From contig JANMES010000006.1 in NCBI GenBank assembly GCA_031377185.1, positions 1 through 64,000 of the forward strand: a stretch of DNA of 64,000 nucleotides. Reading direction: 5' to 3'. This DNA is from Phycisphaerae bacterium (lineage in GTDB: Bacteria > Planctomycetota > Phycisphaerae > Tepidisphaerales > Tepidisphaeraceae). This document shows positions 42,001 to 45,000 of this stretch, one piece after another; within the stretch, counting starts at the first letter, position 1; each line of letters begins with the position of its first letter. Made by a program: the position numbers.

Positions 42001-45000
42001 AAAGGCCGAAATCGGCCTGAGCATAAGGAAGTCGCCCACGCCGAGGGGACGCTTCCTCATTTCCCGATGGTGGTGCTGGTCAACGAGCACTCCGCCAGTG
42101 CCAGCGAAATCGTGGCCGGCTCGCTGATGGACAATAAGCGGGCGCTGGTGATGGGCAATCGCAGCTTCGGCAAAGGCAGTGTTCAGGAAATCATGCCCCT
42201 GGAGAGCAAGGGAGGTGAATTGAAGTTAACTGTCGCCTATTACTATCTGCCCAGCGGCCGGTTGGTGCATCGCAAAAAAGATGCCAAGGATTGGGGCGTC
42301 GAGCCGCAGGTCGTCATTCCGATGGACGAAGTTCAATCCGCCATCGCGATGAAACAACGCCTGACTGCCGAACTGATGCACCGCCCGACGACGGGGCCGG
42401 CGACGCAGCAAACGATCGTGATGTCCGCCACCCAGCCGACCGATCCGCAACTGGATTCGGCGATGAAAACGATGATCGGCTACGTCATCTTCCAAGGCGA
42501 TCGAATTTCGTCCGCCACCACCCGACCGACGACGCAGCCGGTACATTAAAGAAGTAACGAGCGATGAGTAACGAGTAACGAGTGAATGCGTTACTCGTTA
42601 CTCGTTACTCGTTACTCGTTACTCGTTACTCGTTACTCGTTACTCGTTACTCGTTACTTATGCTGATTCTCGGCATCGAATCCACCTGCGATGAAACCGC
42701 TGCCGCCGTGGTGGCTGACGGGTGGCTTGTGCGCTCGAATGTCGTTTCGACGCAGGTCGATCTGCACGCCAAGTACCGAGGCGTCGTTCCGGAGATCGCC
42801 AGCCGGGCACACATCGAACACATCACGCCGGTCATCCGCGAGGCACTGGAAAAAGCCGCTTGCAGCTTCGCAGATGTCGACGCGATCGCCGTTGCACATC
42901 GCCCGGGTTTGGTCGGATCGCTCCTGATCGGCGTGACTGCCGCCAAAACCCTGGCGTGGACGCTGGGCAAGCCGCTGATCGGCGTGGATCATGTGCAGGC
43001 GCATTTGTATAGCGTGATGCTGAAAGACAACAGTGGAAAGCGGAAAGCGATGAGCGATGAGTCTGATCCTCATCGCTCATCGCTTTTCACTTTCCACTCA
43101 AACTTCCCCGCCGTCGGTCTCGTCTGTTCCGGCGGGCACACGGCGCTCTACCTCATCAACAGTTGGACCGACATCACGCTCATCGGCAGCACGATCGACG
43201 ACGCCGTTGGCGAGGCGTACGACAAAGTCGCGGCGATTTTGGGGCTTGGCTATCCCGGCGGGCCGATCATCGACCGCCTGGCTGGTGAGGGAAATCCAAA
43301 GGCGGTGCAGTTTCCGCGCAGCCGGATGGGGCGTGAATCGCTCGATTTTTCGTTCAGCGGTGTGAAAACATCGGTTCTTTACCACGTCCGAGGTTTTCAG
43401 GGTCGCGAGCGGCCGTTGGAATTAACCGACCAAGCCCTGTGTGACATCGCCGCCAGTTTCCAGGCGGCTTGCATCGACGTCATCATCGAAAAGATCCGTC
43501 GGGCACTGCAGCAGACCGGTGCTAAAAGCGTCATCATCGGCGGCGGCGTGTCCGCCAACCGGGGGCTTCGTGCGGCGATCAAAGACCGATTGCGCGTCCC
43601 TTCTTTCGTACCCGCCATGGCCTACTGCACCGACAACGCCGCCATGTCCGCCGGGCTGGGGCACGTCTTGCTGAATCAGGGCAAACTGGCCGCCCTCGAT
43701 CTCGACGCCATCACATATAGTGAACTGAAGCGTTCTGTGTGAGCGCTGCACCGGCGCTGCAATGGGTGGCGAAATGGAGTCCAAGAGCGTTGAAATTGGT
43801 CCAATTGAAGGGGGAAATAGAAAAGCCTGATTCTCGGGCAGTATTGCCAGAAAATCAGGCTTTTTCCAATGTGGGCAGAGCCGGGATCGAACCGGCGACA
43901 CATGGATTTTCAGTCCATTGCTCTACCAGCTGAGCTATCTGCCCTCGGTCGCGTTTCCACACGAGCGAGGGGGAAATCTTAAGCGTTTCAAGGGGATTTG
44001 CAAGAACCGTGATCCCCGACGCCTGCCCGTTTTCAAGGCAACCGCATAGGGCTATTTCGCGAGAGGTTGGGCAGCAATGGTTGATCCCCGGCGGCTATGT
44101 TTCGGGCGTCACCGATCCGGGCCGTTGCATGTAGGGCGTTTTGACTCTCAACCTGATCCGATTAGCATGTCCCGCACCTCTGGAAAAATGCTATGAAAAT
44201 CAGTCTGGAATGGCTCAGCAACTATCTCCCCGGCCCGCTGGACGCTTTAGCGTTCGGCGAGGCGCTTACGCACGGCGGGCTCCCGGTCGAAGTCATCGAG
44301 AATATCGGCGATGACACCGTGATGGACGTGGAAGTCACCTCCAATCGTGGGGATTGTCTCTCGCACCTGGGCGTGGCGAAGGAGCTTTCCGCGTTGCTCG
44401 ATCGACCGTTCAAAGACGTAACGGCGCAACCCGCTGAAGCGGGTCGACCGGCGATGGGTTCGATCGCAGTGGCGATTGATGCGAAAGAGCTTTGCCCACA
44501 CTACGTCGCCCGCGTGATCAAAGGGGTGAAGATCGGACCCAGCCCGGCGTGGATGGTTCGGCGACTTGAAGCCGTCGGACTGCGGTCGATCAATAACGTC
44601 GTCGATATCACCAACTACGTCATGTTCGAACTCGGCCAGCCGTTGCACGCGTTCGATCTCGATAAGGTCGGCGGTGGGAAGATCATCGTCCGCACCGCCC
44701 GCGAAGGAGAAAAACTCACCAGCCTCGACGGACACGAGCGAAAACTGACTGCCGGCATGCTGGTGATCGCGGATGCGAGCAAACCGATCGCACTGGCGGG
44801 CGTGATGGGCGGGCAGGACAGCGAAGTGTCGGCCGGTACCGTCAACGTACTGCTGGAGGCGGCAAGGTTCGAGCCGCTTTCGATCCGCAAAACCGCTCGG
44901 GCGCTGGTGATGAAATCCGACAGCTCCTACCGCTTCGAGCGCAGCATCGATCCCACTTTGCCCGAGCGCGCCAGCCTGCGGGCGGCGGAGTTGATTCTGC

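What a model noticed while it worked through the whole genome (the two positions that open the first line are those of the whole stretch)
43028..43103. Palindromic repeats of several families inserted in frame at recurrent sites of housekeeping proteins
Of about 1,120 palindromic repeat loci, 77 lie in frame inside 68 annotated genes (HisRS, ValRS, PheS/T, SMC, CarB, UvrA, MutL, DnaX, TsaB, TsaD, MnmG, MnmA, NadA, PurL, ArgH, RadA). The same protein loops take up different repeat families independently in sister species, and families whose frames are full of stops stay out of genes.
Evidence so far: Counts and family table in call 126 (also 21,49). Ortholog alignments: TsaD (this place) holds one heptamer family here, another in G002, the DUF559-type repeat in G001 and none in three other genera; PheS insert is absent from G002 (96% identical) and G001 but present in G007; HisRS, TsaB, ArgH inserts are absent from other genera. 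Families with 0-1 open frames of six (F3,F6,F9,F14,F19,F21) have no intragenic copy; F13 (3 open frames) has 17 of 32 inside genes.
(Added by a program. Inside this text positions count along the whole contig: contig position 1 is position 1 of the stretch shown here. "Call 12" and the like, gene names such as g00115 and contig names such as C1 are that model's own, and its searches are not shown. The text may have been shortened before it was handed on; [...] marks where a part breaks off. The agent that wrote the report below was given it as the finding of a first reader that could run no searches.)

Follow-up and report, generated by a model that had tools for sequence, protein, structure and literature searches.

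The report
Hairpin repeats overwrite shared genomic slots
About 1,100 small DNA hairpins of some 30 unrelated kinds dot this bacterial genome, about 60 of them read in frame as loops of core proteins, and sister species often carry a different kind at the very same spot, likely because new hairpins land in old ones and replace them.

Summary
Observation confirmed. The 67-nt hairpin at 43032-43098 adds about 20 residues to a TsaD loop. Independent detection gives 1,146 hairpins (about 1 per Mb by chance) in 31 families, 63 of them inside genes. The TsaD loop holds five different families in five relatives, and 74 of 120 homologues carry an insert there and nowhere else.

The interpretation needs two corrections:
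1. Open frames are necessary but not sufficient; the frames actually used are markedly hydrophilic.
2. Recurrence is largely replacement, not only independent insertion. Against a sister species (82% identity), 136 of 531 orthologous spacers are occupied in both (odds ratio 7.8), 81 of 109 labelled ones by different families, and 6 of 15 in-gene sites are swapped. Nested elements (33) outnumber adjacent ones (10).

The arms of several families also flank small genes (DUF559, GxxExxY, four-helix bundle, RAYT), the likely mobilisers; this is untested. In print already: coding palindromes, intragenic REPs, the stop-codon filter, a note on REPIN 'overwriting', and a DinG-transposase fusion. This scan noted similar refilled loops on other DNA. 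I did not find genome-wide swapping across unrelated classes in print. New variant of a known kind.

The parts
42660..43742 (+). tsaD (tRNA t6A transferase), 360 aa, host gene
   Evidence: (TIGR03723 above cut-off)
43032..43098 (+). Heptamer-type hairpin (my family F4/A5) in frame in the TsaD loop; the same loop holds other families in G001, G002, G008, G017
42552..42659 (.). Intergenic heptamer-array hairpin just upstream of tsaD; the orthologous spacer in G001 holds an unrelated family (A11)
16715..16806 (+). Heptamer hairpin (F10) in frame in a histidine ammonia-lyase-family gene (16204-17829)
45055..45097 (+). Single arm of the DUF559-type repeat (F8) in frame in pheT (44193-46265); absent from G002 and from a contig about 94-97% alike in run X5
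17831..18061 (.). Nested element: GxxExxY-class hairpin (17911-18008) inside a DUF559-type hairpin; candidate replacement intermediate
16025..16126 (.). Intergenic F0 hairpin (the family whose arms flank the RAYT inside dinG on contig C13)
36411..36479 (.). Intergenic heptamer hairpin (F3, stop-rich family)
57593..57690 (.). Second, intergenic copy of the tsaD family (F4) with a longer loop

Best explanation
The hairpins are likely gene-less remnants of several unrelated small arm-gene-arm cassettes, and they likely turn over at a fixed set of tolerant slots, where a new hairpin lands in or on an old one and the old arms are then lost, so that protein loops that accept a hydrophilic peptide are refilled again and again.

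Shown: (a) the same arms flank DUF559, GxxExxY, four-helix-bundle and RAYT genes; (b) orthologous spacers and protein loops of sister species carry different families at the same position; (c) nested elements exist and old-arm remnants lie outside, not inside, current hairpins; (d) the frames used in genes are stop-free and hydrophilic.

Inferred: (e) the cassette proteins do the moving; (f) an existing hairpin is the preferred target, cut and refilled imprecisely without target duplication; (g) the inserts are translated, near-neutral surface loops kept by purifying selection. Empty loops are also colonised afresh (PheS), so slots are both created and recycled.
For: Cassettes: F8 arms round two DUF559 genes, F5/F2-type arms round GxxExxY genes, a heptamer family round a four-helix-bundle gene, F0 arms round a RAYT inside DinG.

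Spacers, G000 vs G002 (1.2 of about 4.3 Mb sampled; 82% identity): 531 conserved spacers, 136 occupied in both, 78 and 58 in one only, 259 in neither; odds ratio 7.8, p=2e-26. Of the 136, 81 carry different families, 24 the same, 4 overlap and 27 could not be labelled. Replicated with G001 (0.4 Mb): 45 of 130, odds ratio 6.7.

In genes: 6 swapped, 5 same, 3 G000-only and 1 G002-only of 15 alignable sites; 2 more were dropped as unalignable. TsaD and HisRS add swaps outside that sample. TsaD homologues: 74 of 120 have a 12-residue or longer insert, all at this loop; 12 peptide motif classes are interspersed on the tree.

Intermediates: nested 33 vs adjacent 10. Partner-family remnants occur in flanks 5 times vs 1.0 expected (p=0.003) and in loops 1 vs 1.3; outer-flank complementarity is 12.6% vs 2.7% shuffled.

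Selection: hydrophobic fraction 0.14 in used frames vs 0.29 in open frames of intergenic copies; lower than the same copy's other open frames in 34 of 39 (p=3e-6). No target-site duplication above shuffled.
Against: No activity or expression was measured.

Co-occupancy of spacers alone also fits independent insertion: my arithmetic on the table gives about 57% of spacers permissive at 64-70% occupancy. Only 2 of the 5 flank remnants are strong (8 and 4 word hits). One G002 site has the G000 family inside and another family outside, which fits either order.

No two hairpins of a family share a loop at 90% or more (12 families, up to 45 copies each), so no recent whole-element copy was seen. No cassette was found for most of the 31 families, including the one at this site. 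Swaps are biased to the same class (35 of 72 vs 30% null), which also fits rewriting in place. Empty 21-aa TsaD loops sit next to filled ones on the tree, which needs fresh gains or allele exchange. Gene calls are from my own hexamer model, and TsaD family labels come from peptides, not DNA.
Confidence: 0.58

Rival explanations
1. Independent insertion only: each family inserts on its own into a limited set of permissive spacers and loops, old copies are deleted separately, and no hairpin is targeted.
For: PheS loop: G000 and G007 carry the same family, G016 another, G001 and G002 are empty. The second CarB site is filled in G002, G007, G022 and G032 and has 25 aa in G000. Empty TsaD alleles are sister to filled ones. 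The spacer table can be fitted with about 57% permissive spacers (arithmetic).
Against: At 64-70% occupancy independent hits should often give side-by-side doubles, but adjacent pairs are 10 against 33 nested. 6 of 15 in-gene sites in 721 orthologues are swapped at the same codons, which would imply only about a dozen usable loops (my estimate), while non-hairpin indels of 10 aa or more occur at other loops. Partner remnants lie in the flanks.
Confidence: 0.2
2. Arms are rewritten in place: resident hairpins stay put and their arms are converted (gene conversion or cassette-templated repair) to whichever family is active, while the loop drifts.
For: Arms are 91-100% identical to their nearest neighbour while loops are never 90% alike. 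Swaps are biased within class, and one heptamer pair recurs 5 times. Loop identity in swapped pairs is slightly above random (0.40 vs 0.35, p=0.04). REPORTH suggests 'overwriting' for REPINs.
Against: 37 of 72 swaps cross classes with unrelated arms, and swapped elements differ in length. Nested complete elements exist. Loops do not derive from the empty allele (mean z 0.5 vs 12.8 for flanks).
Confidence: 0.14
3. Host-selected function: the cell benefits from an RNA or DNA hairpin at these places (mRNA stability, pausing, nucleoid structure), so any family will do and selection keeps the slot filled.
For: Slots persist across species while sequence changes. Elements prefer same-direction and convergent spacers over divergent ones.
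Against: Many relatives have empty loops (TsaD 21 aa in 10 family members; HisRS empty in 13 other genera), and a close relative lacks the PheT insert. It does not by itself explain nesting.
Confidence: 0.08

Closest known systems
Rickettsia palindromic elements (RPE; Ogata 2000/2002, not read; known here through passages of PMC2229807 and PMC3733652)
   Same: Palindromic repeats of about 60-150 nt, both intergenic and in frame in conserved proteins; several families; near-neutral loops (an RPE-bearing guanylate kinase is expressed and active, PMC2229807).
   Different: Here about 30 families of several unrelated classes, gene-bearing cassettes in the same genome, and family swaps at the same site. 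Sequence homology to RPEs was not tested.
Intragenic GTAG/CGTC REPs (Di Nocera 2013, PMC3733652; section 15 read whole, plus passages)
   Same: [quoted passage not shown] Seven families here are mostly GTAG-tagged and one CGTC-tagged.
   Different: The element at this site and the two main in-gene families (F8, F10) are untagged; where a flanked gene was found (F8) it is DUF559, not a RAYT. That paper reports that other shared genes are hit at different sites.
REPIN-RAYT systems and REPIN 'overwriting' (REPORTH, 10.1101/2024.10.14.618302; first of four parts and passages)
   Same: Inverted arm pairs with variable spacers; 13 conserved extragenic spaces hold a mix of REPIN types and 'may be overwritten'.
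   Different: There the swap is among three RAYT-linked types within one species. Here it crosses unrelated classes, is the majority state of shared slots, and includes coding loops.
Bacterial MITEs with open frames (Delihas 2008, PMC2229807; passages)
   Same: The rule that stop-free variants fuse into genes and stop-rich ones stay intergenic (107- vs 155-bp NEMIS, CIR, RUP) is stated there.
   Different: No target-site duplication and no near-identical copies here; a further hydrophilicity filter was measured.
DinG with a TnpA-like domain in Humisphaera borealis (PMC11981726; passages)
   Same: Same fusion: a 4ER8-like domain inside DinG of Tepidisphaerales.
   Different: The passages I read treat it as an incidentally acquired domain. 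Here it is a patchy, repeat-flanked cassette with varying arms.

Membership tests
RPE-like coding palindromes | Palindromic repeat family found both between genes and in frame inside conserved genes | tested here: met
RPE-like coding palindromes | Insert absent from orthologues, at a surface loop | tested here: met
   (loop position from a predicted model)
RPE-like coding palindromes | Decorated protein expressed and active | not testable with these tools
   only indirect: frame selection
RPE-like coding palindromes | Sequence homology to Rickettsia RPE families | not tested
   no RPE sequences were fetched
REP/REPIN-RAYT | GTAG or CGTC terminal tag, for the element at this site (F4) and the main in-gene families F8 and F10 | tested here: not met
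   F4 shows GTGG in 25 of 62 and no GTAG or CGTC; F8 1 CGTC in 44; F10 none in 39
REP/REPIN-RAYT | GTAG or CGTC tag, for families F15, F17, F21, F22, F24, F25, F30 and F12 | tested here: met
   GTAG 22/29, 16/24, 13/15, 11/12, 5/9, 7/9, 4/4; CGTC 23/37
REP/REPIN-RAYT | Cognate RAYT flanked by the repeat | tested here: inconclusive
   met for F0 (RAYT in DinG, NF047646 above cut-off); not found for F4, F8 or F10; draft genome
MITE | Terminal inverted repeats, no coding capacity of its own | tested here: met
MITE | Target-site duplication | tested here: not met
   (flank direct repeats about equal to shuffled; 5 vs 1 at 7 nt or more of about 1,019); junctions imprecise
MITE | Near-identical whole copies | tested here: not met
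   no loop 90% or more alike in 12 families
MITE | Autonomous partner with the same ends and transposase activity | tested here: inconclusive
   same-ended cassettes exist for four gene types; activity untested

The most novel reading that the evidence does not exclude
A guild of unrelated tiny elements (HUH/RAYT, PD-(D/E)XK-type GxxExxY and DUF559, and four-helix-bundle proteins) all integrate by recognising and overwriting DNA hairpins, including each other's. The genome then carries a heritable map of slots, some inside essential proteins, whose occupant changes between species. GxxExxY, DUF559 and four-helix-bundle proteins would be unrecognised mobilisers, and the swapping would be a standing generator of new disordered protein loops.
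Probability: 0.25. Interest if true: 0.82.

Novelty: new variant of a known kind. Interest (0 to 1): 0.57.

Why it matters
How REP/REPIN-like hairpins spread is an open question, and the mobilisers of untagged and CGTC repeats are unknown (PMC3733652, abstract). This genome and its relatives give hundreds of orthologous slots, nested intermediates and candidate proteins, which make the hypothesis 'new hairpins target old hairpins' directly testable. They also give a natural experiment in which peptides an essential protein loop accepts, and a caution for annotation: loop insertions in these proteins are not phylogenetic markers.

Tried and rejected
- Chance or terminators: rejected; 1 hairpin per simulated Mb against about 227 per Mb observed.
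- Loop captured from the target site (arms added round host DNA), suggested by PheS: rejected, mean z 0.5 in 59 sites against 12.8 for the flank control.
- Target-site duplication: not found.
- Clonal MITE bursts: not found.
- Open frames alone explain in-gene frequency: not significant across 24 families.
- Genes split by out-of-frame hairpins in G000: none among 931 genes with an orthologue in the sampled DNA; 3 split candidates had no hairpin.
- RAYT vs DinG co-divergence: my motif filter kept too few sequences for a real test (rho 0.02); not used.
- Expression: no RNA holder listed. Contigs of related organisms did not bridge the tsaD loop.
- First CarB site across genomes: my anchors failed for most loci.
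- Literature searches for cassette-linked heptamer, GxxExxY, DUF559 or four-helix repeats and for cross-class swapping gave nothing on point, apart from REPORTH. The library lacks most subscription journals. Supplements were not opened: Additional file 3 of PMC3733652 may list planctomycete intragenic REPs, and bioRxiv supplements are closed.
- Cyanobacterial heptamer (STRR) and small dispersed repeats are recalled from memory only, not tested.

Full report
THE SITE. Window 43032-43098 is a 67-nt hairpin with heptamer-periodic arms. It folds at -50 kcal/mol, z -11.6. It lies in frame in tsaD (42660-43742). Solved TsaD structures align on both sides and leave about 5 residues where this protein has about 26; AlphaFold gives a confident core and a low-confidence loop. 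Of 30 loci from relatives, 27 could be anchored. Ten members of the same family have a 21-aa segment; G000 has 41 aa, G002 46, G001 70, G008 75 and G017 38, each with a different repeat-like sequence; G013, G023 and G024 are longer without a clear repeat. Source names on homologues point to Tepidisphaeraceae.

GENOME-WIDE. My detector finds 1,146 hairpins in 5.04 Mb, against 1 in a simulated Mb, in 31 families plus 113 unassigned. With a home-made gene caller (79% coding), 63 lie well inside genes; arm profiles raise this to 84 loci in 72 genes, some weak. In-gene copies are therefore strongly depleted overall but real. Two families dominate: F10 (17 of 40 in genes) and F8 (15 of 45).

WHAT FILTERS THEM. 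Stop-rich families are nearly absent from genes (2 of 216 vs 54 of 817), a rule already stated by Delihas (PMC2229807, passages). But open families such as F1, F12 and F16 have none. The frames in use are hydrophilic and disorder-prone: hydrophobic fraction 0.14 vs 0.29, and lower than the same copy's other open frames in 34 of 39. This is indirect evidence of translation and selection on the peptide; it does not separate selection at insertion from later drift.

WHERE THE ARMS COME FROM. The same arms flank small genes: F8-type arms round both DUF559 genes; 9-mer-type arms round four of five GxxExxY genes (the fifth is unclear); a heptamer family round the one four-helix-bundle gene; F0 arms round a RAYT read in frame inside DinG. 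G002 adds a second heptamer family round a four-helix gene, a GxxExxY cassette and a free RAYT-like gene. The DinG-RAYT fusion occurs in the top 120 homologues (86 of 87 anchored keep the HUH motif; the catalytic residues are invariant in 53 aligned). It is present in about half of 24 family genomes searched, with varying arms, and absent from the rest. It folds as DinG plus a 4ER8-like domain on disordered repeat-encoded linkers. The fusion is in print for Humisphaera (PMC11981726, passages). That these proteins mobilise the hairpins is inferred from architecture and, for RAYT, from known biochemistry (PMC8266576, passages). No cassette was found for the family at this site.

RECURRENCE IS LARGELY REPLACEMENT. 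I sampled 1.2 Mb of G002 (82% identity). Of 531 conserved spacers, 136 are occupied in both genomes, 78 in G000 only, 58 in G002 only and 259 in neither (odds ratio 7.8). Of the 136, 81 hold different families, 24 the same, 4 overlap and 27 were unlabelled. In many short spacers the flanks align up to a few bases from the hairpin and only the occupant differs (a stricter first pass gave 79 of 548, odds ratio 4.0). G001 (0.4 Mb) repeats this: 45 of 130, odds ratio 6.7. Inside genes, 6 of 15 alignable sites are swapped, 5 are the same and 4 are one-sided; 2 were dropped. Among the 120 best TsaD homologues (biased towards my insert-bearing query), 74 have an insert of 12 or more residues, all at this loop. 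Twelve motif classes and empty alleles are interspersed on a quick tree built without the loop, 8 proteins skipped. PheS and the second CarB site show fresh hits on loops that are empty in close relatives, and a relative in run X5 lacks the PheT insert. Slots are thus both created and refilled.

ROUTE. Nested elements (33) outnumber adjacent ones (10); one lies in the window at 17831-18061. At swapped sites, remnants of the partner family lie in the flanks (5 vs 1.0 expected, two strong) and not in loops, and flanks are more self-complementary than chance. This fits 'new element lands in the old loop, old arms erode'. Junctions are imprecise and lack target duplications. Against a simple copy-paste picture, arms are 91-100% alike but no two loops reach 90%, and swaps favour the same class (35 of 72 vs 30%), which keeps in-place arm rewriting alive. 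The spacer table alone is also compatible with independent insertion into about 57% permissive spacers (my arithmetic); nesting and the in-gene swaps argue against that being the whole story.

COMPARISON. It works like the Rickettsia coding palindromes and the intragenic REPs of Di Nocera (PMC3733652), who reported the same kinds of host gene in a PVC bacterium. Some families here are tagged REPs, but the element at this site is not, and it fails the MITE tests for target duplication and clonal copies. REPORTH notes possible overwriting among REPIN types at 13 spaces. Passages of PMC6006769 and 10.1101/2021.07.10.451892 gave RAYT background only. Ten searches found no report of majority, cross-class swapping, of the hydrophilicity filter, or of repeat families tied to GxxExxY, DUF559 or four-helix genes; the library is incomplete and supplements were not seen. 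Earlier notes of this scan describe refilled loops, such cassettes and the DinG fusion on other DNA; none came up for the genome-wide spacer swap. G004 (unpublished) serves only as one empty allele; no claim depends on it.

VERDICT. Real and well supported. The phenomenon of coding palindromes is known; the quantified slot turnover across unrelated repeat classes is the new part. New variant of a known kind, interest 0.57.

Noticed in passing
G000:C13:9347-12148 (L049:348-3146): DinG/YoaA helicase with a complete RAYT domain in frame between repeat arms; patchy across the family, catalytic motifs conserved; fusion mentioned in PMC11981726.
   Followed up: yes
L142 (G013:C97): A RAYT cassette with tandem arms sits in frame inside a long ORF that looks by eye like a type I restriction subunit (HsdR-like).
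   Followed up: no
L241 (G002:C2:37650-38340): G002 tsaB reads in two frames at a collapsed F8 remnant; either an assembly collapse or a real slip between arms in an essential gene.
   Followed up: partly
G002 carB (contig C7, about 44500-48300): Four inserts in one CarB (1,240 aa vs 1,186 in G000), from at least three repeat families.
   Followed up: partly
G000 genome-wide: One nesting pair is very frequent: the A15 nonamer family inside the DUF559-type family (9 of 33 nested cases), suggesting a family-specific target or a composite element.
   Followed up: no
window 42552-42659: Asymmetric hairpin whose right arm has expanded to about ten heptamer copies ending just before the tsaD start codon; likely slippage.
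   Followed up: partly
window about 43873-43945, minus strand: tRNA-Phe-like gene between tsaD and pheT, read by eye; not run through a tRNA finder.
   Followed up: no
window 1552-1609: Hairpin with GGGGAC-type ends resembling the TIR consensus of TIRYT elements (GGGGWSAS in PMC3733652); similar peptides fill the TsaD loop in 16 homologues by my motif labels.
   Followed up: no
G000:C83:15454-16116 and C95:179-856: Two near-identical free Y1 transposase genes with short GGGG-type ends and not flanked by the common hairpin families.
   Followed up: no
G000:C147:18910-19419: A 169-aa gene of unknown family carrying two F8-like arms in frame.
   Followed up: no
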